Positions 2,541 through 26,400 of a stretch of 64,000 bases of DNA are shown one piece after another. Below the pieces are notes generated by a model. The model worked only from the letters and a program-made list of their open reading frames with translations, was not told where the DNA came from and made no database searches. Origin of the DNA: Octopus sinensis. Its lineage: Eukaryota. The DNA is taken from assembly GCF_006345805.1 (NCBI RefSeq), contig NC_043017.1, forward strand, positions 28,830,001-28,894,000, read 5' to 3'. The position numbers and the translations under genes were made by a program. Numbering within the stretch: position 1 is the first letter of the stretch; each line of letters starts with the position of its first letter.

Positions 2541-2559
2541 GAATATATATATATATATT

Positions 2560-2930
2560 TAGTGAGGGAAGAAATGGAGCTGAACGAAGATTTTACAAAA
2601 TTCCTTTTTATTATTTTCTACATATGTTTCAAAGGCTGCAAATTCCCTAATTCGGATTGAATAAGGAGACCATTTTGCAGCTTTCTCTTCAGGAAAATCC
2701 AGGAACTTAAATCTCCAAACAAATGCGCAGCAAGCTTTTCGACAAACGCTCTCTAGGAGCCCATGGTATGAATGGCACAAAACTAAAACTTCAATTATCC
2801 GCACCAAGGCACGGTTGCGATACCCCATGGTCGTAACCTCAACCGTGATTTTTCTGTTGTGATTTTTGCTACCCAGGTATCGGTTATAATTTGAATAATC
2901 CGTAACAAGATAATTCATTTATCCATTTCA
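2560..2930 (-). mobile_element. Hammerhead-bearing repeat, family shared with 26085-26400
   Basis: Shares AAATGGAG(C/T)TGAACGAAGAT, TTTTGCTACCC and terminal ATCCATTT blocks with 26085-26400; lies in (TA)n. Confidence 0.65.
2613..2698 (-). ncRNA. Type I hammerhead ribozyme, intact core, GUA cleavage triplet
   Basis: ATTTTC-CTGAAGA-GAAAGCTGCAAA...TTTGCAGCCTTT-GAAA-CATATG-TA-GAAAAT: 6-bp stem I, long stem II, palindromic stem III. Confidence 0.8.
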
Positions 2931-2936
2931 ATAAAT

Positions 2937-3008
<72 letters not shown>

Positions 3009-3427
3009 TATATAGGAGCACTTGTGATTATATAGAATATTAATTATTCCTTGATTCTTGTAATGCGAAACCTTGAAATGCATTTAGTATGCGAAAATTG
3101 ATTTGTATAGATTGACAGCTATAATAGAGAGGAGAAATGAAGGGAGAATGTGAATATCTGAGATGCTTAACAAGGGTAAAATTTGTTAGTAGATGTCTAT
3201 GGTTTAAAGCTAAATGAATACAGAAGAGATACATAGTAGAGAGTCCTAAGCCTGGAGATTGTGCTTCAAACATAATTTTAAAGAAGGACGCGTCGTAACG
3301 CGAAATAAAATGTGGTGCAATTGTGTCGTCAGATTTTTCTATTTTCATTTCCTTTCCATGTTTCCAGCGCGTATCGTAGGGAAAATAACAGAACCGCGTG
3401 ATGTTCTGAATATCTTTCCGTGCCAAT

Positions 3428-3650
3428 ATTCACACATACATTTACTGGTTTGTGTGAGGGAAGATCAAAGTATTTTACAGAAGTGAATTTTTAAGGTACA
3501 TAGATCCAAATCCCAAGGAAAGTAAGAAGAGAACAAATAAAGATTATATTTACAACAACGTCAAACCGCTGTAAGATTGGTAGATGAAAATTAAAGACGG
3601 GAAATATGAATAATGCGGAAATAAAATACGGCACATCTAAGAGAACATCA
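3428..3650. repeat. Dispersed repeat, second copy at 5472-5690
   Basis: TTCACACATACATTTACTGGTTTGTGT...CTAAGAGAAC shared by both copies. Confidence 0.75.
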
Positions 3651-4229
3651 AATATATATTTAACAATATTTTGAGAGATATAGAAATCTTGAGAACAGGA
3701 GATAAATATTACATGGCATAATACCATACATAAATACCTTGACATTTTCTGGGGCCAACAGTGATCTTCTGTGTACAGATTTCTGCCTAATACAACTCAT
3801 TTGTGATGCGAACATCATCCCTGTTGAGATTACCACTTAAAGACTTAATAAACAATAGCTAAAATAATTGTAAGACACGATTAGCTAATTCAATGGTGAT
3901 ATTTCTTGTAAAATTTCTTTATAGATATTACGAGTCATTCGGTTCATCCTCACGATTCTGTTTGCTTTATTTTAGACTCATATCAATGTGCGATCTCGAT
4001 TTTCCTCTACGGCTTTACAGTTAATGTTCAAATTTATCATTGCACATCACAAAATGCATCAGAATGTAAAAGTAAAATATCTCAACTAGAGAAGAATTAG
4101 GTACTAAGCTAATCTATGTATATGTGTGTGAGCGCGGGATTATGTGAGTATATGTGGTTTTGTGTCTGTGACACTTAAAGTTATACGTAACTAAATCAAA
4201 ATTAGCTTTAATTTCGAACCACAAAATTT

Positions 4230-4612
4230 TTGTGGAGGGTCCCAGTACGCAACTGGTACTTAATTTATAGACCCCGAATTTATAGATCCCGAAAGGATGA
4301 AAGGCATGGCTGACTTCGGCGGAATTTGAACTCAGAACGTAAAGACTGACAAATAACGCTAAGCATTTCGCCCGGCGCGTCAACTTTGCTTATTTCTTTA
4401 CTGCCCACAAGGAGCTATACACAGAGAAAACAAACAAGGACAGACAAACGGATTAAGTCAATTATATCGACCTCAGTGCGTAACTGGTACTTATTTAATC
4501 GACCCCGAAAGGATGAAAGGCAAAGTCAACCTCGGCGGAATTTGAACTCAGAACGTAAAGACAGACGAATAACGCAAAGCATTTCGGTCAGCGTGCCAAG
4601 GTTTCTGCCAGC
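4230..4612 (-). mobile_element. Two adjacent family B SINE copies (Meta-domain-like)
   Basis: Reverse complement of GAGTTCAAATTCCGCCGAGG..GCCTTTCATCCTTTCGGGGTCGAT..AAGTACCAGTT present twice. Confidence 0.85.
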
Positions 4613-4651
4613 TCAGAGCTTTAATAGTAGGACAAATATTGTGAAGCGTCT

Positions 4652-5440
4652 CTAGTTGTCGCCGGAGTTGAAATGAAGGTTTTTTTGCAGTGCTAAAAAC
4701 CGAATAGGCTGCATCGTCTCTGCAAGCAACGCCAAAGCATTTGCGGGATCCTTGTTCCAATATGAAGCGGGTGTCAGTTTCTGCACAATACGCAAAAAAA
4801 TGTGTGGTGCAAGGAGAATTTTGTCCCCTGACGTGGAAAACCATTCAGTGCCATGTCTGGGCCTTGAATCATGAGGATGATTTGCAGCATACTCGTTCGC
4901 TTCATCAACTATGCATTTAAACGGGAGTGGCTGTGTCGTAAGTAGCTTGCTAACCAACCACATGGTTCCGGGTTCAGTCCCACTGCGTGGCATCTTGGGC
5001 AAGTGTCTTCTGCTATAGCCCCGGGCCGACCAATGCCTTGTGAGTGGATTTGGTAGACGGAAACTGAAAGAAGCCTGTCGTATATATGTATATATATATG
5101 TATGTGTGTGTGTTTGTGTGTCTGTGTATCTCCCCCTAGCATTGCTTGACAACCGATGCTGGTGTGTTTGCGTCCCCGTCACTTATCGGTTCGGCAAAAG
5201 AGACCGATAGGATAAGTACTGGGCTTACAAAGAATAAGTCCCGGGGTCGATTTGCTCGACTAAAGGCGGTGCTCCAGCATGGCCGCAGTCAAATGACTGA
5301 AACAAGTAAAAGAGTAAAAGAGTAAAAAGAGTATTACCTCCTCGTGAATTCATGGAATACCTCCAATGGCGAACTGTGTTTTCTAAGGTCTGCTTTTATA
5401 TGAGGTGTACCAGAAATCCATACCGCGTCGAGTAAGTGTC
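4652..5440 (-). pseudogene. piggyBac-like transposase relic split by a SINE
   Basis: ISGTPHIKADLRKHSSPLEVFHEF (5335-5420), then IVDEANEYA..EW..T..SYWNKDP..M.PIRF..LQKNLHF..DN (4652-4920), typical piggyBac N-terminal catalytic-region motifs. May extend upstream to ~6365. Confidence 0.7.
4921..5332 (+). mobile_element. SINE family A, near full length
   Basis: A/B boxes, internal (TA)/(TG) tract, (AGTAAAAG)n tail. Confidence 0.92.
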
Positions 5441-6371
5441 CATCGCTCACCACACCGCATTCTGTTGGCCATTCACACATACATTTACTGGTTTGTGTAA
5501 GGCAAGATCAAAGAATTTACGGTACTGAATTTTTAAGGTAAATAGATCGAAAACCAAAGGAAAATAAGAGAAGTAATAAAGATCATATTTGCAACAACAT
5601 CAAGCTGCTGTGAGATTGATAAATGAAAAGTAGAGACGGAAAAGATGAATAATGAGCAAAGAAAACACGGCACAACTAAGAGAACTTGAAATCGCTCGCC
5701 ACACCACATTCTGTTGGTCATGTGATGCTCCTCTACTGCCGTCTTTGATGACAGGGATATTCGACAATGCTACCGAAACGAGAATCGCCCTATGTACTGA
5801 GCAAATAACCACTCTCGGAGCCTGAATATTCCCCTACCAGAATTAGCTACTGAGGCCTCATCACGTGGTGTTGAAGACGAGGTGCCTGGCGTAGATAGAC
5901 ATGACAACAAACGCGACGTGGGTATTAACTTCAACGAATCTCGCGTACATGGACACAATGAACCTGGAAATTAGCGCAGCTATATGTGACGATGAACACG
6001 AAGCTGGTGAAGCTCGACTTGAAGACCAACGCGAGGACTGTATATACAACTAACCTGGCGTGGTTGAATGCGGAGATTGTAAATTCCGTGAAGGACAAGA
6101 GGAATTGCTGAGCGTGTATGAATTTGATAGGAATCCATATTGAAGATCGTTGTTTAACCGCCAAAACTGCTGTTTTATACTGTTATGGTTGTGACGTTTC
6201 GGCCGGAGTTGGAAATATTTACATGAAAAATCTAACACTTATCAGATTCCTTGAAATTTGCATGGTAGCCTCTATTTTCGATTCCAGATAGGGCTTCGTA
6301 TATTGTCGTCATCTGATTCAAAGCGAGTACAGAGCGCACGCGAATTTACGTCAACCGATGTCATGGAGTGA

Positions 6372-6610
6372 AGGGCGGCGAGCTGGCAGAAACGTTAGCA
6401 CGCCGGGTGAAATGCGTAGCCGTATTTCGTCTGTCGTTACGTTCTGAGTTCAAATTCTGCCGAGGTCGAATTTGCCTTTCATCCTTTCGGAGTCGATAAA
6501 TTAAGTACCAGTTACGCACTGGGGTCGATATAATCGACTTAATCCGTCTGTCTGTCCTTGTTTGTTCCCTCTATGTTTAGCCCCTTGTGGGTAGTAAAGA
6601 AATAGGTATT
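6372..6610 (+). mobile_element. SINE family B, full length
   Basis: GGCGGCGAGCTGGCAGAAACGTTAGC head, GAGTTCAAATTC B-box, ends AAAGAAATAGGTATT. Confidence 0.92.
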
Positions 6611-6904
6611 GTAAAAAGCTTAAATGGAGCTCCAAACACCCGAGTTCTTTTACAGGGATTAGAAAAACGGATGGACCTCTGCCATAAGTGTATGAATATG
6701 AGACGAGAATATGTAGAATAAAATCATAATTAATTGATCTACCTGGATTTTCTTTTACCGAAAGGCAAAAACCATTCAGCACACTCTCGTACAAATACAG
6801 ACACACACTCATGCATTCACGCATACTCAAATATATATATATGAAGAAATCTTTCCTACACGAACACACACATATATACATATAGGGTTTATTTATAAAA
6901 AGTG

Positions 6905-7285
6905 AAGGCGCAATGGCCCAGTGGTTAGGGCAGCGGACTCGCGGTCGTAGACCGCGGTTTCGATTCTCAGACCGGGCGTTGTGAGTGTTTATTGAGCGAA
7001 ACAACTAAAGCTCCACGACGCGCTCCGGCAGGGATGGTGGTGATCCCTGCTGTACTCTTTCACCACAACTTTCTCTCACTCTTACTTCCTGTTTCTGTTG
7101 TACCTGTATTTCAAAGGGCCGGCCTTGTCACACTCTGTGTCACGCTGAATATCCCCGAGAACTGGGTTAAGGGTACACGTGTCTGTGGAGTACTCAGCCA
7201 CTTACACGTTAATTTCACGAGCAGGCTGTTCCGTTGATCGGATCAACCGGAGCCCTCGTCGTCGTAACCGACGGAGTGCTTCCAA
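6905..7285 (+). mobile_element. SINE family C, full length
   Basis: AGGCGCAATGGCCCAGTGG A-box, GTTTCGATTC B-box; near identical to 62120-62504. Confidence 0.9.
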
Positions 7286-7344
7286 ATTTATAAGAATCAC
7301 AAAGATATTCAAAGTCAGAAGTATATAAGCAGCTTTAAGGATGT

Positions 7345-7575
7345 GCATCATCATCATTATCATTGTTCGACCGTGGTCGAGACAATGGAATTTACCATGC
7401 TACACCAGACTTCACGGTCCATCATAGCATTACGGAGGTCCTGTAGCTGGATGCCTGTATCCCTGGCGATTACATCAAGGTAGGAAAGTGTACGCCCTCT
7501 GGCATCGCGAGTAGATGACTTCCAGAGGAGAAGAGGAGAAATTGCCTCGGTTTTTTTTGCTCTACAATAATGTTC
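7345..7575 (-). mobile_element. RTE-clade LINE 3' end
   Basis: RGRTLSYLDVIARDTG..LRNAMMDREVW, followed by a (TGA)n tail. Confidence 0.8.
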
Positions 7576-7771
7576 ATACTCACATATTTTGTTTAGACAA
7601 AATTTCAATTATCAATTCATTCTGAAGTTTCTTGCATTCAAGAAACATAATTTAAAATTACAAACGATTTCGAGGAACAAGGAGTGTGTAGGTGTCACGG
7701 TGAGTTTATGTTTTTTTTCTTTGTCTTTTGTTTGTTTGTTTTTTACTTTTTTATCCGCATACCCTTATACA

Positions 7772-7998
7772 TTTCTTTACTACCCACAAGGGGCTAAACA
7801 CAGAGGGGATAAACAAGGACAGACAAACGGATTAAGTCGATGACATCGACCCCAGTGCGTAACTGATACTTAATTTATCGACCCCGAAAGGATGAAATGC
7901 AAAGTCGACCTCGGCGGAATTTGAACTCAGAACGTAACGGCAGACGAAATACGGCTACGCATTTCGCCCGGTGTGCTAAAGTTTCTGCCAGCTCGTCG
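7772..7998 (-). mobile_element. SINE family B
   Basis: Reverse complement of the 6372-6610 consensus; ATACCCTTATA flanks both sides. Confidence 0.9.
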
Positions 7999-8852
7999 CA
8001 TACCCTTATAGTTTACATGAGCGGTGTGATATTTTTTTGTTATGATAAACGCTGTATCTTGTACGACTGCTTTGAAAGTTAATTTGTGCTTTGTGTATTT
8101 ATATTCCTTTCTTTAAGTATTCATGTTTACGTATTCACAGTTGCACTTGTATATTTGCTTTTATTTGCATCAACTTTATTTCTTTTATTTCAGAATAATA
8201 TCTTCTATTATAAGGTGATGTGTAAATGCCAAGAGGTTACCTAAAATATAAAAACATCTTTATATGCATGAATCTTGCATCAGCTCGGGAAATACTTGTC
8301 TTAGTTTTAAAGATCTTTCCTCGGTAAATTGTTGACATTTATCTTTAATATTTTACTTGTAGTTATTTCGATGCAGCTTAAAGCCTTTAGTCGAATAAAT
8401 CCGGCAATTCCAACACACTGCTTAACTCGAGATCTGAAATTTTTAGCAGATGTAGACACATGTGTAAATATGTTAGTGCGTGTGTGTGCGTGTGTGATGA
8501 CACGCACAAGATTTCTTTCGTTCGCTTTTCTCTCTTTATTATTCTTCTTATTTATTTATCTACGTTCTTGCTTATTGATCGACATAACGGGAAAACTGTT
8601 TGAATTATACACGAGACATTATTTTGATTCGTTCTTGGGCAATCCTCGAAGGAAATATATTTATTTATCAACAGTTATATAAACTTGTTTCGTAAATGCC
8701 AACACACAAAAAATATAGAATTTTGAGTCCTCAGTAACTTCTGCTAAATTTTAATAATAATACAGAGTTATATCTTGAGCTATTGTTTTCCACTTTGTAT
8801 CGACATACAAACATACATACATACGTATATACATATATACATACGTATATAT

Positions 8853-9215
8853 ACTTTTATTTGTTTCAGTCATTTGAGCACGGTCATGTTGAAGCACCAA
8901 CTTTCGTCGAACGAAGCAAGCCTACGACTTCCTCTTTGTAAACCTAGTACTTATTCTGTCGGTCATTTTGGCCGAAACGCTAGTTTACGGGGATGTAAAC
9001 ACACCAGCATCGGTTTTCAAGCGATGATGGGGTGACAAAGACAGACATACAAATATATACATTTATAAATATATCTGACGGATTTCTTTCTGTTTCCGTC
9101 TACCAAATCCACTGCCAGGGCTTTGGTTCACACGAGGCTATAGTAGACGACACTCGCAGTGGGACTGAACTCGGATCCATGTGAATGGGAAGCAAGCTTC
9201 TTACCACTCAGCCAT
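8853..9215 (-). mobile_element. SINE family A, diverged
   Basis: TTGTTTCAGTCATTTG tail to TTACCACTCAGCCA head, in reverse orientation. Confidence 0.85.
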
Positions 9216-9229
9216 GCAGCTGCTTTCTC

Positions 9230-9800
9230 GTATACGAGCAAAGCGTCACTGAAATGAGTCATTGATGATGCAATGGGAGGCCGTTCTATGACTCTTGAGC
9301 CCCGGTCAAATATTTGCTCATAGTATTGCATAATGCACAGTTGTGGTGTCTGGCAGAAGGAACCGGTGGCACAGTATGAACTCCAGCTAACAAAAATTAT
9401 CACAGACATACATTCCACCTTTCAAATTATAGAGTATGTCCCTAATCACGTCACGCCAAATTTGAGGAACCACTTCACAATGCCAAACCATCGGAATCAC
9501 ATCTGTTATAAATGAACAGAGATGTTTCACCACCATATTTTTCTATCCATACCAGTGGTCGTTCCATTGTTCTACACAGCCTAGAAAAGAAAATGCTGGA
9601 AGATGGCTGGGTAGCAACATGAATCCAATTACCCATCTTTGCACCCTAATTAATTTGTATACTCTTGTTTTAGGCCAATTACAGATGTTTTGTCCTGAAA
9701 TAATATCTCTTGTGGGCGTACATATACCGAAGAGTTGTTTTCTCAGGACACAAACTACCTTCACTGTACTATCAAATATGTATATCCAATAAAGACTATA
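9230..9800 (-). pseudogene. Possible Academ (XPG-like domain) transposon relic
   Basis: LPAFSFLGC...WYG and QYYEQIFDRGSRVIERPPIASSMTH resemble the FHAFTGCD..FYG.GK and RY.LF...E.LPPT..AL..H motifs; stops present. Confidence 0.4.
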
Positions 9801-11079
9801 CATTGACAGCTATTCTTATATAGTTTTGTCGCAAATAGTTACGCAAGATTAATATGAGATATTATTCTTCTTTTCTTATTTATATTTCTATATACATTAC
9901 TAATTCTCTAATGGAATACTAATTTTATTTTATGCATCCTAAACGCATGACTGTATTCTTAATTACAGTTACGGATAGTATAGTTTATAGTGAAATTTAA
10001 GCATTAGCTGCGTGTGATTATGGTTATTTAATTCAAAAAATATTAGTAAAATTTATCATTTAATAAATGAAATGCTAAAAAATGCATATTTAACATTTGA
10101 TAATTGAAATGCTAAAAAATGTAAATTTGAAATATGATCAACTTATTCACCAATTTAAAAGTAGTTAAGTTTAATCAGGATCAAATAACATAAAAAAAAA
10201 AGCAAATTTCTATACTGATACATGTATCAAAATATGTTTTGAAAATAAAAAAGTATTTATTAGTTGATATTTAAAATCTTACAAGTGTTTAGTTTAAAGA
10301 TCTGTCGCCTAATGACGTTGATAATTATTACGAAGAATTCTATATAATGGAATTTTTCTTCCATACACAATTATTTGTAGCAAAATATATGAAAGATAGT
10401 AGTAGTTAATGCTATAGTGAACGCTATAAAACTTCATTATTTTTTCATGAATTTGCTTATAGGTGAAGTTCAATGACAGAAATCCGTTTGATGTCATTAT
10501 GTGGATAGTCGACATTGTTGAGGTTAGCGAACTCGTTGGATTATACTTATTTAAACATTTTATACGTGCATGTGATAAGCAAAATATTACAAATTTCAAT
10601 GCTTAGAACTAGCTAACTAGCTATATAGCATTTCCATCACCAACCAATTTGCATACATTTATTTTGTTTATTGTCTGCTTCGCTTTCAGTATACCTACAA
10701 ATACAATTCAAATTAGTAAAGTTACTCTCATTTCCAACTTAATTTACAAGTATGTGTGCATGGCTTTGCGCGGCGCCCGTCTTTATATCTGCATTTGCAG
10801 GCAAATTTATGAATTCATATAGGAAAACAGAGACGTTTGATGAGTTTATATGCGCATATTTATGGGGATATACACATTTATATAATTAAATGTGTAATTA
10901 TACATGTGTGAACTTGAAAGCTGTACACATATATACATGTTCACTTCTGTATGCATTTGCATACATTTGAGAATATAATGGTGTATGTACAATCGTATTA
11001 AATCATTTATAATAATTGCTATGCATGTATGTGAGTAAAATGAAATACGTGCACGTACTTAAGGGCATTAATAACCTCG

Positions 11080-11463
11080 TAGGCGCAGGAGTGGCTGTGT
11101 GGTAAGTAGTTTGCTTACCAACCACATGGTTCCGGGTTCAGTCCCACTGCGCAGCACCTTGGGCAAGTGTCTTCTACTATAGCCTCGGGCCGACCAAAGC
11201 CTTGTGAGTAGATTTGGTAGAAGGAAACTGAAAGAAGCCCGTCGTATATATGTATATATATGTATATATATATGCGTGTGTTTGTTTGTGAGTCTGTGTT
11301 TGTCCCCCTAGCATTGCTTGACAACCGATGCTGGTGTGTTTATGTCCCCGTTACTTAGCGGTCCGGCAAAAGAATAAGTCCCGGGGTCGAGTTTCTCGAT
11401 TAAAGATGGTGCTCCAGCATGGCCTCAGTCAAATGACTGAAACAAGTAAAAGAGTAAAAGAGT
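11080..11463 (+). mobile_element. SINE family A
   Basis: Full head AGGCGCAGGAGTGGCTGTGTGGTAAG to AGTAAAAGAGT tail. Confidence 0.92.
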
Positions 11464-11569
11464 ATACATGTTGTTACAAAAATAAACATGTGTACTAATG
11501 TATACAAAGATGCATGAAGTATTGGTTAGGGTGTAGCTCTCACGATAGCGAGATCGGAGTTTTTTAGAA

Positions 11570-11800
11570 GTTTACAAAATTCTTTGAAGATGTAAAATTT
11601 TCAAAAATGATGATGACCTGAAAGCGGACCTGCTTCAGGTTTTGGCTGATTAGGACCAGGATTTCTATGAGTGCAGAATCATGAATCTGCCAGAAGGAGG
11701 GCAAAAGATCATCGAGAAAAATGGCAAAATATGTTGTTGATTAAAGTTTATTCTTTGTAAGAAAAAAATGACTTTTGTTTCACACTAAAAATTATGATGT
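11570..11800 (+). pseudogene. mariner transposase C-terminal relic
   Basis: F.NDDDLKADLLQVLAD*DQDFYECRIMNLPEGGQKIIEKNGK matches the mariner FY..GI..L.ERW..IE.NG.Y terminus. Confidence 0.75.
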
Positions 11801-12004
11801 TATATACCCATAATTTTTTTCATTTTATTTTATTTACATAATGTGTCCATGTACCCCCCTCAACATGCCCATTCTAACTATTACTGGTTTATGTTACTTG
11901 TCATTATACCCTATAATTACATATATTTTACTGCTGATATATGCACACATGTATGCATACATAGTACTTCCTGATGCCCTACGAGTTTACTATATATTTA
12001 CTAC

Positions 12005-12007
<3 letters not shown>

Positions 12008-12051
<44 letters not shown>

Positions 12052-12109
12052 GTATACATATATATATATATATGTATTATATGTATATATATATATGTAT
12101 ATATATATG

Positions 12110-12141
<32 letters not shown>

Positions 12142-12202
12142 TAATATATTATATATATATGTATATATATATATATGTATATATATATAGTATATATATA
12201 TA

Positions 12203-12280
<78 letters not shown>

Positions 12281-12482
12281 TTGATAAGCATAACAAATGC
12301 GCAACCGGTAAAAAGAACTTTCACCTAATTAAATTACTTAAATTACTTCAATTATTTGTCAGCATTTTCTTCATTTCCTTTTTTATATATCACCACTCGT
12401 GTTCGACATCTCCTTTCTTTAAATATATATATATATATATTATATATTATATATATATATTATATATATATGTATATATATG

Positions 12483-12534
<52 letters not shown>

Positions 12535-12535
12535 C
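12008..12535. repeat. Long interrupted (TA)n tracts
   Basis: Directly visible. Confidence 0.95.
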
Positions 12536-14504: not shown

Positions 14505-14650
14505 GAGCTGTGGAAAGTGTACCGCTATCAAACTTAGTTCTTATTGGATACAAGGTGGAGCTTGATAAAACCTGGCTGGGTGAGAGTGTGTAACGTTGAA
14601 TGACCTCAAACACGTAAAAGCCCCAGTAAACATCAGTTATGGTGTCTGAA
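14505..14650. repeat. Locally duplicated segment (copy 1; copy 2 at 16163-16360)
   Basis: AGTGTACCGCTATCAAA...GATACAAGGTGGAGCTTGATAAAACCTGGCTGGGTGAGAGTGTGTAA...ATGGTGTCTGAAG shared; homology resumes at ~15007 after an insertion. Confidence 0.9.
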
Positions 14651-15000
14651 GAAATTGGAACAAGTTTCGTTAGAATATGTGGATTTCACAAGCGGTTCCC
14701 AACAGTCCCGCATGTAGAGACAACCTGTTTGCCGCAGATTGTCCGCAGACGCAGGGACAGAACAACCAAGGAGCCGCCGGTTGCCGAAACAGGCACTCTG
14801 AGGATTTTCACTCGGTGTCAGACCAATCCGCCTTGGGTGGCCCTAGCAGGAACCGAAGTTCCCGACGGCATAGCTCTGACACAACCCGTTGCCAGCGTCC
14901 CCACCACGGTGAGGTGGGGATGGACTTTGGGGACGGACTTAGTAGTAGGGATAAATATAAACGTGTAGTAATCGTAGGAGTGCCTCTTGAATTGGAGTAA
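14651..15000 (-). mobile_element. GC-rich insertion resembling an RTE/BovB-type LINE 5' region
   Basis: Minus-strand GAGCTATGCCG..TAGGGCCACCCAAGGCGGATTGGTC resembles the RTE-BovB 5' motif as I recall it; absent from the paralogous copy at ~16311-16330. Confidence 0.6.
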
Positions 15001-16162: not shown

Positions 16163-16360
16163 GTGAGCCGTGCACAGTGTACCGCTATCAAATTTAGTTC
16201 TTATTAGATACAAGGTGGAGCTTGATAAAACCTGGCTGGGTGAGAGTGTGTAATTTTGAAAGACCTCAAACCCGTAAAAGCCCCAGTAAACATCGGTGAT
16301 GGTGTCTGAAGTTGCATCATACAAAACATCATATGATACGTGAGTTTTTAAGAGGTTAAC
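16163..16360. repeat. Locally duplicated segment (copy 2, without insertion)
   Basis: Aligns to 14505-14650 plus 15007-15037. Confidence 0.9.
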
Positions 16361-16731
16361 CGATATACATCGGGTAAGCACGCAAGCGATCAATTCAACA
16401 ACTCAGATATCACAAATATGTACCCGCTCTAAAATTGTCACCAGAGATTATGACATTACATCCACTAAAAGTCACAAGTACAATATGATATCATAGTGTA
16501 GACTAAATTGCTCAAGAATAATTCCTTGTACATGATTATTCAGAATTGCTAGAATTAGATGGTAACCAACGATTAAAATCAGGGTGTAACATGTACGTGT
16601 ATATTAAATACTGGCTGAACAAAATGACATACTATAGGTGTAATATTTAGGTAACAATTTCAAGGGAGAGAGTAGCCGATAACATCGACCCCAGTGCTCA
16701 ACTGGTACATATATTATCGAGCTACATAAAG

Positions 16732-16960
16732 GGGGCGAGCTGGCAGAATCGTTAGCACGCCGGGCGAAATGCGTAGCCGTATTTCGTCTGCTTTTACGTG
16801 CTGAGTTCAAATTCCGCCGAGGTCGACTTTGCCTTTCATCCTTTCGAGGTCGATAAATTAAGTACCAATTACGCACTGGGGTCGATGTGATCGACTTAAT
16901 ACCTATATCTGTCCTTGTTTGTCCCCTCTATGTTTAGCCCCTCGTGGGTAATAAATAAAT
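16732..16960 (+). mobile_element. SINE family B inserted into an older minus-strand B copy (16670-17078)
   Basis: Full consensus; flanking pieces are reverse-oriented B fragments; TACATATATTATCGA occurs on both sides. Confidence 0.85.
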
Positions 16961-17406
16961 AAATAAATAGATACATATATTATCGACCCCGTAAAGATGA
17001 AAGTAAAAGTCGACGTCAGCGGAATTTGAACAGATGGACAAAATGCTTCTAAGTATATTTCCTGACTGCTCGCCGCCTTGAAAAAATGTCCTTATATTAA
17101 AGATAGGATTAGGACGCATTTCAGTAGGAAAGGAGCCAAAATGGTGATTATAGTAATTGATTCAGACTAAACTGCATCCCTACAGATTATTCATATATTC
17201 ATACATTAACATGTATTTCAGAACCAACGATTCAGCAGGTAACTCATTATATGCTCATTAACATATATTCATAAGCTTGGATCACCATCTCCTTGGCAGG
17301 ATGTAGAAATTGCATGCAAACCTTCATTAGCATTAGATGGCTAATAAAGTAAAAGGTATGCTTTCGATGATATCTTCAATGTTCATTTGGAAATTAAACA
17401 AAATAG

Positions 17407-17975
17407 AGGCGCAGGAGTGGCTGTGTGGTAAGTAGCTTGCTTACCAACCACATGGTTCTGGGTTCAGTCCCACTGCATGACATCTTGGGCAATTGTCTTC
17501 TACTATAGCCTCGGGCCGACCAAAGCCTTGTGAGTGGATTTGGTAGATGGAAACTGAAAGAAGCCTGTCGTATATATGTATATATATATATATATATATA
17601 TAGGAAAAAACAACTCAAGATAGAAAATGCTAAAATAATTTTATAAAGAACATTTCAGTACCGGTTTCAGTCATTTGTGACCTTTTCAACTGTAACGATT
17701 AAATAATTAAATTTAGAAAATTAAAAGAAAAGTTTTTCTAAAAGAATATTTGTATAGTGTTCAAATATAAGTGGCATTTTCCGTGTGTGCGTGTTTGTGT
17801 GTCTGTGTTTACGTCCCCGTAACCTAGCGGTTCGGCAAAATGGACCGATAGATTAAGTACTAGGCTTACAAAGAATAAGTTCTGGGGTCGATTTGCTCGA
17901 CTAAAGGTGGTGCTCCAGCATAGCCGCAGTCAAATGACTAAAACGAGTCAAAGAGTAAAAGAGTAAAAGAGAGTG
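17407..17975 (+). mobile_element. SINE family A interrupted in its microsatellite by a ~180-bp insert (17601-17780)
   Basis: 5' half 17407-17600 and 3' half 17783-17975 match the consensus. Confidence 0.9.
17656..17692 (-). ncRNA. Minimal type I hammerhead motif with U3-A8 core variant
   Basis: CAG-TTGAAAA-GGTCA-CAAA-TGACT-GAAA-CCGG-TA-CTG. Confidence 0.6.
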
Positions 17976-18170
17976 TATTCAAGCTTTAATTATGGGGAAC
18001 CTGAGTGTAAGACTCAGTCGATATCAATTATGAAAACGGTGTTGATAACAAACAGGTTGAGGGCATATACAGTTAAAAGCATGAGAGTGTGTGGGACTGA
18101 AGTAAATCACTGGATAATATGTAGTGGTTGGTTTCATCTTTCATTTGTTTGATATTATTAGACGCTATAT

Positions 18171-18584
18171 GGCGCAGGAGTGGCTGTGTGGTAAGTAGCT
18201 TGCTTACCAACCACAGGGTTCCGGGTTCAGGCCAACTGCGTGGCATCTTGGGCAAGTGTCTTCTGCTATAGCCCCGGGGCGACCAATGCTTTGTGAGTGG
18301 ATTTGGTAGACGGAAACTGAAAGAAGCCTGTCGTATATATGTATATATATATAAGTGTGTGTGTATGTGTTTGTGTGTCTATGTTCGTCCCCTTAGCATT
18401 GCTTGACAACCGATGCTGGTGTGTTTACGTCCCCGTAACTTAGCGGTTCGGCCAAAAAGACCGATAGAATAAGTACTGGGCTTACAAAGAATAAGTCCCG
18501 GGGTCGATTTGCTCGACTAAAGGCGGTGCTCCAGCATGGCCGCAGTCAAATGACTGAAACAAGTAAAAGAGTAAAGAGTAAGAG

Positions 18585-18585
<1 letters not shown>
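18171..18585 (+). mobile_element. SINE family A, full length
   Basis: Matches the consensus head to tail. Confidence 0.93.
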
Positions 18586-18615
<30 letters not shown>

Positions 18616-18727
18616 AATATAATATCTATAATGTTTAGCAACGTTTCATCTGTTATGTCTTGATTTCAAATTCCATTAATATCGAAATGGGCTTCCATTA
18701 ATTCGGACTTGGTTATAATCAACGTAT

Positions 18728-18942
18728 GCTCTTTTTACTCTTTTACTTGTTTCAGTCATTTTGACTGTGGCCATGCTAGGGCACCGCTTTAGTCGAGCAA
18801 ATCGACACCAGGACTTATTCTTTGCAAGCCTAGGGACTTATTCTATCGGTCTCTTTTGTCGAACTGCTTCGTTACGGGAACGTAAACACACCAGTATCGG
18901 TTGTCAAGCGATGTTGGGTGGGACACAGACGAAGAAACATAT

Positions 18943-18988
<46 letters not shown>

Positions 18989-19090
18989 GACGGGTTTCCT
19001 TCAGTTTCCGTCTAACAAATCCACTCACAAGGCTTTGGTCGACACGACGCTTTAGTAGAAGACGCTTACCGCGCAGCCACTCTCACGCCT
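18728..19090 (-). mobile_element. SINE family A, internally deleted
   Basis: CTCTTTTACTTGTTTCAGTCATTT tail to CAGCCACTCTCACGCCT head, in reverse orientation. Confidence 0.88.
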
Positions 19091-19102
19091 ATAATTGGTT
19101 TA

Positions 19103-19194
19103 CGCCCGCAGAGGGACTCGAACCCGCGACACTCATATTACTTCTAAGCTTGACCTATAAAAGTCTGATGCTCTACCGACTGAGCTATGCGGAA
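19103..19194 (-). tRNA. tRNA-Lys(TTT): tRNA-Lys(UUU) gene or pseudogene with a 19-nt intron (19139-19157)
   Basis: TTCCGCA TA GCTC AGTCGGTA GAGC A TCAGA CTTTTA [TAGGTCAAGCTTAGAAGTA] A TATGA GTGTC GCGGG TTCGAGT CCCTC TGCGGGC G. One mismatch each in the acceptor, anticodon and T stems. Confidence 0.85.
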
Positions 19195-19730
19195 TAGTTT
19201 CTACCTACAAACATTTAAAAATAGTGATAAATTTATAAAAATACAAAGACTAAGTCAAACATTTAAAAGTAATATTCAAATCCCGACGAATGCTGCCCAA
19301 ATCCAGCATTTACTGGAACTTTATTCAAACGTGCATAATCCTACTTTACCACAAATAAAATTTGCTCCTTTTACACGTTTCTTCATATCACCAGTTAAAC
19401 AGCAATCGACTTATGCATTTTACTCCTATTCAAGTTTTACTCTTACGATTACTACACATTTATATCTATCTCCACCACTAAGCAGGGCTTATATATTTGA
19501 TCAGATACAAGGACACTAGTCCATCTAATCTTCATGCATTAGCCACAAGTCTATTGGCAATCGGTCATAAATAATACTAATGCGAAACATTTATACACAA
19601 ATGTACTATCGCTGCATAATGGCTCGTGTTAAACAAAAGTATATGTGTAGTGGGGTGGATTCATTCAACTAAAAATTCGTCAGCTTTGTGCCCCAGCATG
19701 GCCGCAATCTAGTGACTGAAAGAAGTAAAA

Positions 19731-20192
19731 GATAGAAGATAAACATATCCCCATATATATATATATATATATATATAAATATATATACAACATGCATATA
19801 CATATGCATATAATTATATAGATATATATATAATGAATTAGGTGTATATACACACACATCAAAACACATAGATATCCACCTGTAAGATTATACAAAGATA
19901 ATATACGTGTACATATTATGCTTATATAGACATATGTACATGCGTGTATATATATATATATATATAAGATAAACATATATATATATTTATATAGAAGATA
20001 AACATACCCCCATATATATATATATATATATATATACAACATGCATATACATATGCATATAATTATATAGATGTATATAACGAATTAGGTGTATATACAC
20101 ACATACATCAAAAACCATAGATATCCCTATAAGAATATACAAAGTTAATATACGTGTATTTATTATGCTTATATAGACATGTACATGCGTGT

Positions 20193-20237
<45 letters not shown>

Positions 20238-20288
20238 AAGATAAACATATATAGATATATATAGAAGATAACCATACCCCCATATATG

Positions 20289-20323
<35 letters not shown>

Positions 20324-20375
20324 ACATGCATATACAATGCATATAATTATATAGATGTATATAACGAATTAGGGT
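19731..20375. repeat. Tandem repeat, ~260-270-bp unit, ~2.4 copies, with embedded (TA)n
   Basis: ATAGAAGATAA(A/C)CATA..CCCATATAT..CAACATGCATATACA..ATAATTATATAGAT recurs at ~19731, ~19991 and ~20261. Confidence 0.85.
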
Positions 20376-20380
20376 TATAG

Positions 20381-20412
<32 letters not shown>

Positions 20413-21449
20413 GTATGGCGTCACTTGGTGTACAACCTAGAATATTCGGATAAGTAAACGTTAATTATTTCATTTGTTTAACAACTTAATATCGAATCTA
20501 CAGATGACTGAAAGAGATATTCTATTCCTCTTTTCTTTATCATTTTCCTTTTTGTTTTGAAGATATACGTTTAACCAAAAACTTTTAATTAGCATCATGC
20601 AATTAAGTACAGTAATAATAAGGCGAGAAAAATAATCATTTAATTTAAGATCATTCTAGAAAAATATTTTAATTTTATTAATCAATAATGTACTCTAATT
20701 AAAGCAAGTTACAAATATCTGTTGGCTTATACCATGCTAAGATCTGTTGTTTTGGTTAAATGTAAAAGATACTTTAAAAAAGAGATTAAAGATTATAATC
20801 AATAATGAGATAAAGAAATTCCTGACTGCATCATCTAAAATGTATCTTTTGATGCGTGGAAACTGAGGATATATTGTTAGCATGCGAAAATCTTTATGAT
20901 TGAAAAAGTTTGGTATGGTTTTTTTTTTTCTTTAGCGAAAAAGTGGAAAGAGATAAAACATTAAGGAAACCTACTGAAAAAATCGATTGACAAATTTACC
21001 CATTTACCCGGTTGTCTAAAAGTGTTTCGACAAACCGTTAATTTCTATTAAAGAAGATATTGTCATTTTATTCCTATGCTAGAATTATAATGTCAAATCC
21101 TGGCCGATGTTATGTAGATTTCATAATGTACTTGATAAGTCATTTCTGTGAATGATAGACCTAAAAAATTAAAAGAAATATAACTGGCTAGGTAGACCTA
21201 AGTTAACATGACTATTGACAATGTTCGCTTGACGGATATGGATAAATATTTGTATATTAATATATAATTAAATGACACCGTGGACTAAGACATATAGATA
21301 AATAGACACATAATATTAGATACAAATATTTATACATGTATGTTTACAGTAACATTTATCCTATGTCAAAATATTGTATATTTTTAACCGTTTGTCTCAA
21401 CAAAAAATCTCATAATGTTAAGTGCAAAATATGTTCCTCAGGGAATCCA

Positions 21450-22400
21450 TCTTTGCCACTTATTATCTCTTTAATTAGAAACAAATTTCAATCAGAAGGA
21501 ACTCTTTAGAATTAAGGACACCTTTCGGAGGAAAGCGAATATCGACGAGCACAACAAACCAACAAAGGTAGCAAGAATTCTATTGCCAAAGGTAGAACAA
21601 AAATGATGTCAACGCAGCCATCGAGTTATGAGATCGGAATAGAAAAAATCAAAGGTCTTTCGCATTTTGAATAGTTTTCTTGAGAACAGTTTCATTTCAA
21701 GAATTCTCCATTTTCTCCATGAACATGATACGCGCCATACAGTGGGGTGTTTCAGAATCGTACTTGGCATAATGAGTTGAAAATGCAGTTTTGCAATAAA
21801 GATTATTTGGAATAAAGTGGTTTCATTTCAAATAAATGGTACGATAAACTGCCATATTTGCCCATACTGGGTACCTGAGAACCAGCATATTTCCGAAGAA
21901 TAGCATGTTAATTTACAATGAGCTAAAGTATGATGTGAATAATCGTTAAGATATCCATGAGTCACTTTGACATTGTATTTTGTTCTGATTTACTTCAGCC
22001 TGCTAGGACAACCTGTCATACCAAGCCTTCAAGTCTAATTGGATGATGTGGCATTTCATGTATAGCAAAATGTGCTCTGGTATACTGATATACGAAATTG
22101 CCATGAGATTTTACTAATCATGTAGATTGAGTGCATCACACACCGTTAGATTTTTAATAGTGATACTAAAAAGAGAAAGATTACAGCACAAAAATGGCAA
22201 CAGTTGGCAAATACAAGGCTGCCAGTGGACAAGTAAGCACACAGATAGTAAACCAACTACATCTTGAAGATTTTCGATTCCATTTCTTCGCGTTATCAGT
22301 TGTAACTGGACCGGACCAGCTCTCTGTTTGCTTATTAGCGTAACTAAATACTGTCTGTAGTCTCTAATAAATTGTGAAAATGAAATGTAATATAAATACT
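21450..22400 (+). pseudogene. Highly decayed Tc1/mariner-superfamily transposase
   Basis: INGTINCHICPYWVPENQH (~21832-21888) resembles the F.LNG.VN..NC.YW..ENP motif. Confidence 0.45.
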
Positions 22401-22420
22401 ATGTAATCATTCAAGAGGTG

Positions 22421-22421
22421 A

Positions 22422-22506
<85 letters not shown>

Positions 22507-22587
22507 GTCTGTCTGTCTATCTATCTATCAATCTATGTGTCTGTCTGTCTATCTATCTGTCTAACTAGCAACATGTATCCATGTATC

Positions 22588-22628
<41 letters not shown>

Positions 22629-22639
22629 ATATATATATA

Positions 22640-22682
<43 letters not shown>

Positions 22683-22700
22683 GCACACACACATATATAT
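22421..22700. repeat. (TCTA)n/(TA)n microsatellites
   Basis: Directly visible. Confidence 0.95.
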
Positions 22701-23499
22701 ATAGTTTCATTAAATAACTTTGACTGATTCGTACTCCATTTTCATTGTCAATATAAGCTAGTGCAACCACCAGTTTAATGAGGCTATTTCGTCTGTTATT
22801 ACGCAAAACAATTAATTCTGTTTCAGCTTAATGTTTTATAAGGTCCTCCTTTGAAAAAGTTTGCTACGCTCGACACTTTTCACACACTGAAGCAAATACA
22901 AGCTGCGGGGAAGATATGTGTAATTTTCCTGTGTATACATATGTGTTTGCATGTGTGTGTGTTGTCGGTGTGTGTGTATGTATTCATTAATTTATAAGTG
23001 TGTGTGGTGTATGTGAATATATGTATATCACATATATGAAAACATATTTATATATGTTTTTATCAAACACAGGTACCTTCGCACATCGCACACTCGTATA
23101 TTATAGAGAGCAAATATATATAAAGTAATTAAATAGGTAATTTAATAGATAAATGTTTGTTATATACATAAAATAAATAATTGAAACTCTGTAAGTATAA
23201 TAAATGAAATATATAATTGATTTAAAATATTAATGAAATGTTATGTGAGATATATTTACACACCTACACGCACATCTATATAAATTTACAAAGCAATAAA
23301 TTGAAGACGCAAACGAATACAAATTAGTTATGTGTATTTGTAGTAAACAGCACACCTTTGTTGAGGTGACAATTGTTTAAATTATATAGTATAATCAAAA
23401 GTTTTGGTTGAAATCAATTTAGGACACAAACGTAGTGTATTTAGTCGAAATACGTTTCATTTAATTCGTTTAATTTGTGTTTGTATGACTAGTTTCATT

Positions 23500-24067
23500 A
23501 AAAGCGACATATTTCAATATAAAATCATCCGATTTGGAGATTTGAAATTAAAAATTTAAAAACTAGTCGTTTGGACTTGGAAATTACACACCCATAATGA
23601 AAAATCGAGTAAATATTTTGAATCCTTACCTTTTATTTAAATTATATCTATTATTCTTTATTGTAAATGAATTCTTCATTGTCATATAATACAGAACAAT
23701 GAAAGTTAGTAAAGATGGTGGAGTTGAGTGTACTTAGGGATGGAAATATCGAAGTTTTTCTCAGGAAAGACAGATAGCAGGATGAATTTTTGGAACCCTG
23801 TGAAAACAATGGACGATAGACTACATTCGTTCCTGTTGAAGTAAATTTTATAGGACTTGTTGGAACTAATATGAAACAAACACTTCCTTGAAGCTTGCTT
23901 CTCATTATCAGCTAAAACTGGATCAGAGAAGCCATCTGTTTGCATATTACGTTTATATAATGTTGTGTGTAGTTTTTAATTAATTGTGAAAATGAAATAT
24001 CATAAAATAAATACTGACTACGTTATCTTTCAATATATATAATACATTTCTGAGGGACACCTTGTAT
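23500..24067 (+). mobile_element. Possible decayed Tc1/mariner element right end
   Basis: Ends GGGACACCTTGTA (TACA.GGTGTCC-type TIR); AATTGTGAAAATGAAAT shared with ~22370. Confidence 0.35.
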
Positions 24068-24450
24068 CTGACTGCGAAACAGACAAGGGCTTTTGCGTGA
24101 AAATTGTGGGGATTAGTGGTATACAAAATAAGAATTATGGATGATAAAATCATCAGAGTAACTACGTTTCAACAAACTTCATGTTGTTGTGTGAGAGGTT
24201 TGTCGCCTACATTAGTGGATGGCATCGATGCCATCGAAACAATTGTCTGCAATTTGCATTTAATATTATGTTAATAAATTTTAATTTTTGAATTAACAAT
24301 TGTACATCTTCATTTTCTTTTCATTTTTATAAATTTGATATATACCCCTGTGAACTATAAAGTTTTTCTCAACTAAATTTGATATTAGACAGTGAGTTAA
24401 GTCAGTGAAAAATGGGATGTTTTCATTCCTATAAGTAGAACCTATTGATC

Positions 24451-24496
<46 letters not shown>

Positions 24497-24672
24497 TGCC
24501 TTTTTAGCTATATTTGTCAATCAGTGTTTGTGTCTTTTCGACTAATACCCTTCAATGTACTGCCTTAGAGCGACCGCCTTCAAATAAATGGAACAAGTAA
24601 AATACAATATAAATATATATACAGAGAGAGAGAGAGAGAGAGAGAGATACATACATACATAGAAACATATCG

Positions 24673-24720
<48 letters not shown>

Positions 24721-25594
24721 ATATATATATACGCCTGTGTTTAAACACGCACACGTACATACAGAGACACAGAATTATATAAGGACGAAGGTTTTTCTAT
24801 AAGTAATAAGAGAAGAGGCTCGAGGTTAGAGACTTACGAACGATCTTCTGAACTCTCTACGATTAATCTTCAGAATGATAGTACAATATTACGATAAACT
24901 TCCAAAATTCATTAATCCTTCCTTAGAAGATTTAAGATGAATCATTAAAGAGTAAACATTATCAAAATTTTCTCCAAATAATATATTATGAAATATAGAA
25001 ACTAAAAATTTACCATACACATCTCCGCTTATTATCTAATGTATTCGATACGATTACAATAAAGCATAATGATATAGTAGACGCAATAAGCAAAATAGGT
25101 ATGTAAACAAGCATATAAACTCATGTAATTTTTATTTATAAAATTTAAGTAAATTTTAGTTGAAATATGCACTAAAATTGAGGCACCTTGTTAGGTCGGA
25201 ATAGTATACACGCACAAGACTATTATGTAAATAACAATCTTGTTACATAAGTGCTGGTCGAATGGTATTCAAGCAGTCTATGTACTTTATTAGACCCTGT
25301 TGAGTAAAGAAATCCGCTCGTAAACTACTGAGACATGTACATTATATTAAATATACAGTCCATAATGTTTAGGAAAGGCAGATTCTGAGAGAGCTGAATA
25401 AAATATGAGTAAAAGTAGAGGTAGAGGTATCAATCCATTCTGTCAACGGAAATAATAGCAGAATCGCTGAAAATGGTTTGATCCGTGGATTTTAAACTGT
25501 TAAATTGTTTTCAATGGCCATTTTGCAGTTCATGAATTCATCTGACGAAAACGCTATGTTTATAATGATGTAATGCTTTCATTAATCAATTAAA

Positions 25595-25775
25595 TAATTA
25601 TTATTATATCGAAAAATATCTTAGGAATGAGAATCCGGGTTCGAAATTTCCCTAAGAGACCTAATGAATGCCGGAGGGTATATCGGCCGAAACGTGATGT
25701 TAACAACAAGGTGAGGACAAATATCAGTCAAATGTATATAAGGTACGTAATTCGTTATATCTTAAATCTAGAAAT
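25595..25775 (+). mobile_element. Penelope pLTR fragment with degenerate hammerhead (25656-25701)
   Basis: TAGGAATGAGAA..GGTTCGAAAT..CTAATGA..GGAGGGTATATCGGCCGAAACG..GAGGACAAATATC, homologous to 32300-32398 and 34020-34140. Confidence 0.7.
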
Positions 25776-26005
25776 GTATGTGTGTATGCTTGTGTGTCTG
25801 TGTTTATTCCCCAACATCGCGTGACAACAGATGATGCTGGGTTTACGTCCCCGTCACATAGCAATTCGGCAAGAGAGACTGATAGAATAAGTACTAGGCT
25901 TACAAAGAATAAGTCCTGGGGTCGATTTTTCGACTAAAGGCAGTGCTCCAGCATGGCCGCAGTCAAATAACAGAAACATAAAAAATAACAAGAAAAGAAA
26001 GAGAA
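25776..26005 (+). mobile_element. SINE family A 3' half
   Basis: TTTACGTCCCCGT..AGAATAAGTACTAGG..CCAGCATGGCCGCAGTC. Confidence 0.85.
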
Positions 26006-26084
26006 TATATATGTATATATATATATATATTATATATAATATATATTATATATATATATATATATATATTTATGTATATATATA

Positions 26085-26400
26085 AGTAAATAAATGGAGT
26101 TGAACGAAGATGTAATTTAAAATTCTTTTACTTTCGACATATGTTTCGAAGACAACATGGTTTTATTCCAAAGGAATAAACGGTGTAAAATGCAATCTTC
26201 TCGTCAGGAAAGAAAGAGAGCCTATCTCAACTCCATTTATCTACTTATACTTGCACAAATTACGACCCATTAATCCGGAGTTTCTACCTTTGAATAGGTC
26301 GCTTCATCCGTGTTATTTGCGTGAATTTTGCTACCCTGGTAACTGTTTATTGAATTTTCCATGTTAACGGTAAACAAAGGATAATTCCTTCATCCATTTA
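26085..26400 (-). mobile_element. Hammerhead-bearing repeat with internal inversion
   Basis: Homologous to 2560-2930; ATAAATGGAGTTGA (~26090) is inverted at ~26228. Confidence 0.65.
26131..26212 (-). ncRNA. Type I hammerhead ribozyme, canonical core, GUC cleavage triplet
   Basis: CTTTC-CTGACGA-GAAGA...TCTTC-GAAA-CATATG-TC-GAAAG; extra hairpin TTTATTCC/GGAATAAA within loop II. Confidence 0.85.

What the first reader, a model, noticed from the sequence alone, without database searches (positions are those of the whole stretch)
2613..26212. Two intact hammerheads of one family with compensatory changes
Copies at 2613-2698 and 26131-26212 have diverged strongly but keep the fold. Stem I is AUUUUC/GAAAAU versus CUUUC/GAAAG. 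The core is CUGAAGA versus CUGACGA, differing only at the free position 7. Stem II differs entirely, GAAACAUAUGU is identical, and the triplet is GUA versus GUC. Variation falls where a hammerhead tolerates it, which is the best internal evidence for selection on ribozyme function. The long, branched stem II is unusual for minimal Penelope hammerheads.
Basis: partly seen in the sequence, partly recalled or inferred. Interest (0 to 1): 0.75.

Follow-up and report, generated by a model that had tools for sequence, protein, structure and literature searches.

The report
Hammerheads of Hydra-clade Penelope retrotransposons
Both hammerhead-shaped motifs are real, but they are leftover ends of two related jumping-gene families with thousands of genomic copies; their ribozyme is predicted to cut only as a pair, and their enzyme lacks the zinc finger proposed to aim such elements at TA repeats although the copies still sit in TA repeats.

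Summary
Both type I hammerhead motifs are present as described, with predicted cuts 3' of 2619 and 26136. They are the ends of two different families of one Penelope-like retrotransposon lineage. Walking upstream in the genome reaches a 3.67-kb RT + GIY-YIG element (intact 902-aa ORF) with Hydra-clade motifs. A strict motif pattern matches 8,218 times (control 0). Stem II is an unbranched, interrupted 53-55-nt hairpin, about half identical between the copies, and covaries across families. Loop III stays self-complementary (CAUAUG/CAUGUG/CACGUG), which favours a dimer-only ribozyme. Selection acted on the master elements: inserted copies lose core bases at the background rate, so these two are intact because they are young. 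Hammerheads in Hydra PLEs, including an octopus family, are published. Two features differ: stem II is twice as long as in any Hydra row listed there, and Rfam misses it; and the CxCX5C linker zinc finger, linked in print to (TA)n targeting, is absent while (TA)n flanks persist. Cleavage is untested. Earlier scan notes report other hammerhead repeats with this insertion footprint in this genome, but not this family.

The parts
2613..2698 (-). Type I hammerhead motif, family 1 (core CUGAAGA at 2692-2686, 55-nt stem II, loop III CAUAUG, GUA triplet, predicted cut 3' of 2619)
2558..2784 (-). 5'-truncated arm: 3' UTR end (pseudo-LTR) of a family-1 Hydra-clade PLE, ending about 60 nt after the predicted cut
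   Evidence: 97-100% identical to many genomic copies; continues upstream into an RT + GIY-YIG ORF in other copies
2785..2935 (+). Opposite arm reduced to the ~150-nt 'tail' (the 5' leader that precedes the ORF in tandem copies), ending in AATAAA
   Evidence: the tail follows the hammerhead arm in direct orientation in other copies
2543..2557 (.). (TA)n flank, left of insertion 1
2936..2978 (.). (TA)n flank, right of insertion 1
26131..26212 (-). Type I hammerhead motif, family 2 (core CUGACGA at 26207-26201, 53-nt stem II, loop III CAUAUG, GUC triplet, predicted cut 3' of 26136)
26084..26231 (-). 5'-truncated arm: 3' UTR end of a family-2 Hydra-clade PLE
   Evidence: 91-98% matches in the best other copies; preceded by a GIY-YIG coding end in longer copies
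26227..26399 (+). Opposite arm: last bases of the 3' end plus the tail; joined to the other arm through a 5-nt overlap at 26227-26231
26005..26083 (.). (TA)n flank, left of insertion 2
26400..26421 (.). (TA)n flank, right of insertion 2

Best explanation
The two motifs are hammerheads in the 3' UTR (pseudo-LTR) of two families of a Hydra-clade Penelope-like retrotransposon, left behind as short head-to-head insertions in (TA)n, and they likely cut only when two copies pair through the palindromic loop III. Shown from sequence: the element structure, copy number, covariation, loop symmetry and neutral decay of inserted copies. Inferred: a transcript across a tandem pLTR-ORF-pLTR copy carries two motifs 3.67 kb apart; these would form a double hammerhead and release a unit-length RNA, possibly circularised. 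The RT would then start internally at two fixed sites (about 50-60 and about 215 nt past the cut position) on RNA whose hammerhead junction is intact, priming at TA-rich nicks. This would give the inverted arms and the optional tail. The single motifs in this window are likely inert passengers.
For: Intact 902-aa ORF flanked by two direct motifs and one inverted motif (L164); its model's best Foldseek matches are telomerase RTs. 17 of 18 loci chosen by RT protein similarity carry an intact motif downstream of the ORF. Between families the motif is 78-85% identical and the upstream UTR 48-66%; in 14 such copies 15 of 19 core and stem III positions are invariant against 96 of 625 in the UTR. Across 28 motifs, 88% of cells pair and 11 of 26 pairs change on both sides; slid controls pair 36-51%. 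Loop III pairs with itself in 28 of 28 (U-A 16, U-G 10, C-G 2), and the mismatched loop CACAUG is 47 of 8,218 pattern hits. The double-hammerhead fold is -42 and -38 kcal/mol for the homodimers against about -15 and -13 per monomer. 3' ends fall at two fixed points followed by (TA)n: 28 of 28 and 32 of 34, background 8.5%. Internal RT initiation at two sites on uncut RNA was shown in vitro for an Anolis PLE (PMC11167929).
Against: No cleavage data. No genomic trace of cutting: 0 of 26 mappable upstream pseudo-LTRs begin within 5 nt of the cut position (range -624 to +122; 4 of 30 loci not mappable), and 3' ends lie downstream of it, so the RT template spans the junction uncut or religated. In the Anolis PLE, hammerhead mutants did not affect insertion in vitro and cleavage needed the protein. 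Family 1 has a G10.1-U11.1 wobble; the long stem II leaves no obvious canonical loop I-loop II contact (inference). Only 9 pairs of helix I/III and the loop were tested beside stem II; the core in 20 of the 28 aligned rows was fixed by the search pattern, and the structure was drawn from these sequences, so leans in its favour. RNAalifold by itself recovered only basal stem II.
Confidence: 0.72

Rival explanations
1. The motif is kept as a structural signal (RT or RNP docking site, or a protein-assisted ribozyme) and cleavage is rare or dispensable for transposition.
For: No insertion boundary at the cut position; 3' ends require an uncut junction; in the Anolis PLE cleavage needed protein and was dispensable in vitro; low in vitro activity of metazoan PLE hammerheads (PMC4209133); apical stem II is conserved almost without two-sided change (3 of 4 pairs vary on one side only), as for a binding site.
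Against: All catalytic positions and a cleavable NUH triplet are kept across families while N7 and H17 vary freely, which a pure docking site would not need; loop III symmetry is kept.
Confidence: 0.2
2. These two loci are domesticated, host-selected ribozymes, for example a cross-family pair in one minus-strand transcript 23.5 kb apart.
For: Both are on the same strand with an identical loop III; a heterodimer fold can be drawn (6 + 4 bp helix I, -38 kcal/mol against a dimer minimum of -40.9).
Against: Both are ordinary young members of large families; core decay among copies is not lower than background (8/792 vs 153/10,328, p 0.35; 9/451 vs 133/5,002, p 0.54); no host gene or transcript was shown here.
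Confidence: 0.04
3. The window copies are non-autonomous retrozyme or MITE-like units of 320-380 bp with their own terminal inverted motifs.
For: Both insertions are short, have similar AAATGGA...TCCATTT ends and lie in (TA)n; other hammerhead repeats in this genome are reported as retrozymes.
Against: The internal junction differs from copy to copy and is an inversion breakpoint; the hammerhead arm continues into an RT-EN ORF; no tandem array of the short unit was seen in the loci mapped.
Confidence: 0.04

Closest known systems
Hydra-clade Penelope-like elements, including Hydra-1_Obim (Craig et al. 2021, PMC8557442; section 11, passages and supplementary Files S1-S2 read)
   Same: Single ORF with RT and C-terminal GIY-YIG; DKT; RW; CxxC and CxH either side of E/N; 3' hammerhead; (TA)n insertion; inverted 5'-truncated copies; present in an octopus.
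   Different: Not Hydra-1_Obim (different protein start and hammerhead). Unit 3.67 kb against under 3 kb; linker CxCX5C absent, replaced by about 150 aa of Asn/Ser-rich sequence and a conserved Cys-free motif; RWL in place of RWK; 53-55 nt between the core halves against at most about 26 nt in the 26 Hydra rows of File S2; tail about 150 nt against 30-40.
Minimal and small-helix-III type I hammerheads of metazoan PLEs (Cervera and de la Pena 2014, PMC4209133; parts 1-2 of 4 read)
   Same: Type I order, short helix I, 1-2 bp helix III with palindromic loop, predicted dimer mechanism, families with covariation, mostly single copies from truncated PLEs, opposite-strand pairs 100-700 bp apart.
   Different: Helix II there is 6-8 bp with an extra base after A9; here it is a long interrupted hairpin with no extra base, and one sub-lineage has G10.1-U11.1.
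Poseidon element of Anolis carolinensis, PAc (Frangieh et al. 2024, PMC11167929; parts 1-2 of 4 read)
   Same: Two internal RT start sites giving an optional tail; AT-rich target; hammerhead near the pLTR-ORF junction; no reads or ends at the cut site.
   Different: Different clade; there the hammerhead overlaps the start codon and the tail is short; here the motif lies about 270 nt upstream of the ATG in tandem copies.
Metazoan non-LTR retrozymes (bioRxiv 10.64898/2026.07.22.740005; parts 1-2 of 5 read; PMC7229834 seen only in a search listing)
   Same: Type I hammerhead in a PLE-related non-coding repeat.
   Different: Retrozymes are ORF-less tandem arrays; these two copies are truncated ends of coding elements.

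Membership tests
Type I hammerhead ribozyme | Conserved core CUGANGA / GAAA / NUH in type I order with helices I-III | tested here: met
   helix III is only 2 bp in the monomer
Type I hammerhead ribozyme | Covariation of the helices | tested here: met
   11 of 26 pairs change on both sides; 7 of 12 in basal stem II; 36 of 500 shuffles reach that pair count, 0 of 500 the covariation score
Type I hammerhead ribozyme | G10.1-C11.1 pair | tested here: inconclusive
   G-C in 20 of 28 motifs and in copy 2; G-U in 7, including copy 1 and 69 of 72 family-1 copies
Type I hammerhead ribozyme | Match to an Rfam hammerhead model | tested here: not met
   no hammerhead family at E up to 10 on either locus
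Type I hammerhead ribozyme | Site-specific self-cleavage | not testable with these tools
   only assembled contigs were available
Penelope-like element (C-terminal EN+) | Single ORF with telomerase-like RT and C-terminal GIY-YIG | tested here: met
   for family 1; for family 2 only the EN end was recovered. Pfam gave no hit
Penelope-like element (C-terminal EN+) | Pseudo-LTR partial tandems, inverted 5'-truncated copy, optional tail | tested here: met
Hydra clade | DKT motif | tested here: met
   4 of 5 own ORFs, 63 of 63 database homologs by DK[TS]
Hydra clade | RWK motif | tested here: inconclusive
   RWL at the aligned place in the 4 ORFs that reach it; RWK in 41 of 63 homologs
Hydra clade | CxxC and CxH either side of conserved E and N in the EN | tested here: met
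   5 of 5 own ORFs
Hydra clade | CxCX5C linker zinc finger | tested here: not met
   0 of 5 full ORFs and 0 of 2 family-2 fragments; 59 of 61 homologs with a recognisable EN have it and all 61 have 3 or more Cys there. Read as a secondary loss, so this is a derived variant and not a typical member
Hydra clade | RT groups with CxCX5C-bearing elements | tested here: met
   quick tree, 98 rows, midpoint root, no outgroup: sister to P0004/P0005/P0011 (SH-aLRT 99), inside a group with a linker-bearing family of the same genome (96). The published Hydra sequences were compared by eye only
Hydra clade | (TA)n insertion preference | tested here: met
   3' ends 60 of 62 (20 of 28 under a narrower window); free 5' ends 6 of 19 against 2.9% background
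Hydra clade | Length under 3 kb | tested here: not met
   direct motifs in L164 are 3,674 nt apart
Neptune clade | DKG motif and CX2-5CxxC linker | tested here: not met
   DKT and no linker Cys; my first reading as Neptune was withdrawn
Non-LTR retrozyme | ORF-less tandem units each with a hammerhead | tested here: not met
   arms continue into coding elements

The most novel reading that the evidence does not exclude
A high-copy, recently active Hydra-derived lineage has replaced the CxCX5C linker zinc finger with a cysteine-free motif and still inserts into (TA)n, so that finger is not the targeting determinant it was proposed to be. The same lineage carries a long-stem-II hammerhead, invisible to Rfam, whose loop III has moved through U-A, U-G and C-G self-pairing, a natural record of selection for a dimer-gated ribozyme that processes only tandem transcripts. 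Intact 900-aa ORFs make both points directly testable.
Probability: 0.5. Interest if true: 0.55.

Novelty: new variant of a known kind. Interest (0 to 1): 0.36.

Why it matters
Why PLEs keep hammerheads and what aims them at microsatellites are both open questions (PMC8557442, PMC11167929). This lineage offers intact enzymes, thousands of copies, natural loop III variants for a dimer test, and linker-bearing relatives in the same genome as a control for targeting. It also shows that thousands of hammerheads can be missed by Rfam models because of a long stem II. The two window copies themselves are ordinary transposon debris.

Tried and rejected
Rfam on the whole window returned 150 rows, nearly all microsatellite-driven microRNA matches, and no hammerhead; on each locus alone, none either. 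Pfam and PDB sequence search gave nothing useful for the ORF. A first reading as a fixed-end 0.9-kb non-autonomous element was dropped when copies continued upstream. A first reading as Neptune was dropped after reading the Hydra definition. A TIR/MITE reading was dropped because the similar ends are two RT start points on opposite arms. Sequencing runs: no RNA holder listed on record; four runs guessed to be RNA were contigs only and cannot show ends, strand or level, so expression and cleavage remain open. The first 5'-end count (6 of 33) was confounded by alignment breaks and was redone. One row in the first UTR alignment was mis-extracted, spoiled the invariant counts and was dropped. No RT was recovered for family 2 proper. 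The careful tree did not finish; the quick tree was used. Literature searches for this family or the linker loss returned no description, but Repbase and Dfam could not be searched, and the bioRxiv supplements were not seen, so the family may already be catalogued.
Full report
Observation. Both motifs are in the sequence as described, on the minus strand. My type I descriptor finds exactly these two in the window, with H17 at 2619 and 26136. Between them the motif is 53 of 86 positions identical and stem II 27 of 55. Three pairs change on both sides (A3 columns 8:96, 24:75, 30:69). Stem II is a single interrupted hairpin of 55 and 53 nt, not a branched one. Rfam finds no hammerhead at either locus at E up to 10.

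What surrounds them. Each motif lies in a 320-380-bp insert flanked by (TA)n. Genome searches split each insert into two parts that elsewhere occur in the other relative orientation: a hammerhead-bearing arm and a ~150-nt tail. In other copies the order is arm, short TA-rich spacer, tail, (TA)n, often with an inverted 5'-truncated arm in front. So each window insert is a head-to-head insertion in which one arm kept the hammerhead and the other was cut down to the tail.

The parent element. Walking upstream from the family-1 arm reaches a GIY-YIG end and an RT with GLYRDD. L164 has an intact 902-aa ORF between two direct motifs 3,674 nt apart, plus an inverted one. The tail is the leader just before the ATG. 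An AlphaFold model (mean pLDDT 78.7) matches telomerase RTs best. Family 2 is also preceded by a GIY-YIG end, about 60% identical to family 1; its RT was not recovered. The RT query gave 8,690 candidates, of which 150 were scored. The motif pattern gave 8,218 exact matches against 0 for the control. The host is probably an octopus: this rests on recalled SINE sequences, a named Argonauta homolog and earlier scan notes.

Clade. I first read it as Neptune. The definition in Craig et al. 2021 (section 11) fits Hydra: DKT, RW, CxxC and CxH around E and N, 3' hammerhead, (TA)n insertion. That paper lists an octopus member, Hydra-1_Obim, whose protein start and hammerhead differ from these. One defining feature fails. 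The CxCX5C linker is in 59 of 61 database homologs with a recognisable EN, and in other families of this genome, but in none of 5 full ORFs and 2 family-2 fragments of this lineage. About 150 Asn/Ser-rich residues and a conserved cysteine-free motif stand in its place; the model is uncertain there (pLDDT 51-67). In a quick RT tree of 98 rows with a midpoint root and no outgroup, the lineage is sister to linker-bearing proteins (SH-aLRT 99), which I read as a secondary loss.

Where selection acted. Of 18 loci chosen by protein similarity, 17 have an intact motif after the ORF; one is degenerate. In 14 of them, 15 of 19 core and stem III positions and 27 of 55 stem II positions are invariant, against 96 of 625 in the upstream UTR. 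Across 28 motifs, 88% of cells pair, 11 of 26 pairs change on both sides, and slid controls pair 36-51%. Caveats: 20 rows were picked by a pattern that fixes the core, the rows are related, and the pair count itself is reached by 36 of 500 shuffles. RNAalifold alone recovers only basal stem II. Within families the picture differs. Core positions differ from the majority in 8 of 792 and 9 of 451 cells, against 153 of 10,328 and 133 of 5,002 elsewhere (p 0.35 and 0.54). Copy 1 equals its family majority throughout; copy 2 differs at three positions, among them C7. The ribozyme was conserved in the replicating masters, and these two copies are simply young.

Dimer logic. Helix III is 2 bp in the monomer and adds no stability. 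Loop III is CAUAUG, CAUGUG or CACGUG, self-complementary in 28 of 28. The mismatched CACAUG is 47 of 8,218 hits; 41 of them are scattered over the same families and 6 belong to an unrelated stem II. The pattern allowed only these four loop states. The double-hammerhead fold is within 1.4 and 0.1 kcal/mol of the dimer minimum for the two homodimers. This matches the dimer mechanism described for newt, viroid and PLE motifs (PMC4209133; PMC6155905 passages).

Against a role of cleavage in setting element ends. 3' ends sit about 50-60 and about 215 nt past the cut position. The template therefore spans the junction, either uncut or circularised. The Anolis PLE behaves this way in vitro: two internal start sites, uncut RNA as the main template, cleavage only with protein (PMC11167929). 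Sequencing runs gave no usable test.

Targeting. (TA)n follows 28 of 28 arm ends and 32 of 34 tail ends, background 8.5%; a narrower window gave 20 of 28. These 3' flanks could partly be templated by the element's own TA-rich spacers. Free 5' ends, which cannot be, have (TA)n in 6 of 19 against 2.9%. Craig et al. took Hydra's (TA)n bias as strengthening the link between linker and targeting; this lineage keeps the bias without the cysteines. The point is softened by the linker-less Poseidon enzyme also cutting AT-rich DNA and by the chance that the replacement motif does the same job.

Verdict. The feature is real and of a known kind: hammerheads in the pseudo-LTR of Penelope-like elements of the Hydra group. 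It is a new variant in its long stem II (53-55 nt against at most about 26 in the Hydra rows of File S2, though a spike-moss PLE there has a similar length), its long tail and its missing linker finger. Five paper searches found no description of this family, and look-ups by sequence in the scan's notes were blank; repeat libraries could not be checked. Interest 0.36.

Noticed in passing
L201-L209, L226-L228, L232, L233, L235 (G000): The same genome holds Hydra-type families that keep the CxCX5C linker; one has a 3' UTR full of TG/TA microsatellite. Their hammerheads were not searched. They are a natural control for the linker-less lineage.
   Followed up: partly
G000 C1:170906858, C2:88526511, C5:73886331, C5:103349431, C20:10834773, C11134:8184: Six of the 47 CACATG hits have an unrelated long stem II, so at least one more long-stem-II hammerhead family exists; whether that loop is its family state is unknown.
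   Followed up: no
L093 (G000:C24:2679500-2687500): A family-1 element runs through its tail straight into the ORF start of another subfamily (78% identical): a mixed tandem.
   Followed up: no
L104 (G000:C4:10052702-10055800): Two 5'-truncated family-2 copies, 99% identical, in tandem and separated by (TA)n.
   Followed up: no
window 34506-34835 (-): Frame with a GIY-YIG-like stretch, probably a fragment of another Penelope-like element (motif recalled).
   Followed up: no
window 48345-48701 (+): Tc1/mariner-like transposase fragment (motif recalled).
   Followed up: no
window 30971-31345 (+), 32556-33059 (-), 39476-40303 (+): Fragments resembling the C-terminal part of RTE-type LINE ORFs (recalled).
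   Followed up: no
window 39094-39195: Near-perfect palindrome with G+C-rich arms around a TA-rich centre.
   Followed up: no
window 44688-45238 and 61044-61593: Two three-copy tandem arrays of a 184-bp unit.
   Followed up: no
window 19103-19194 (-): tRNA-like match above the Rfam gathering score (34.2 vs 29 bits), probably a SINE head.
   Followed up: no
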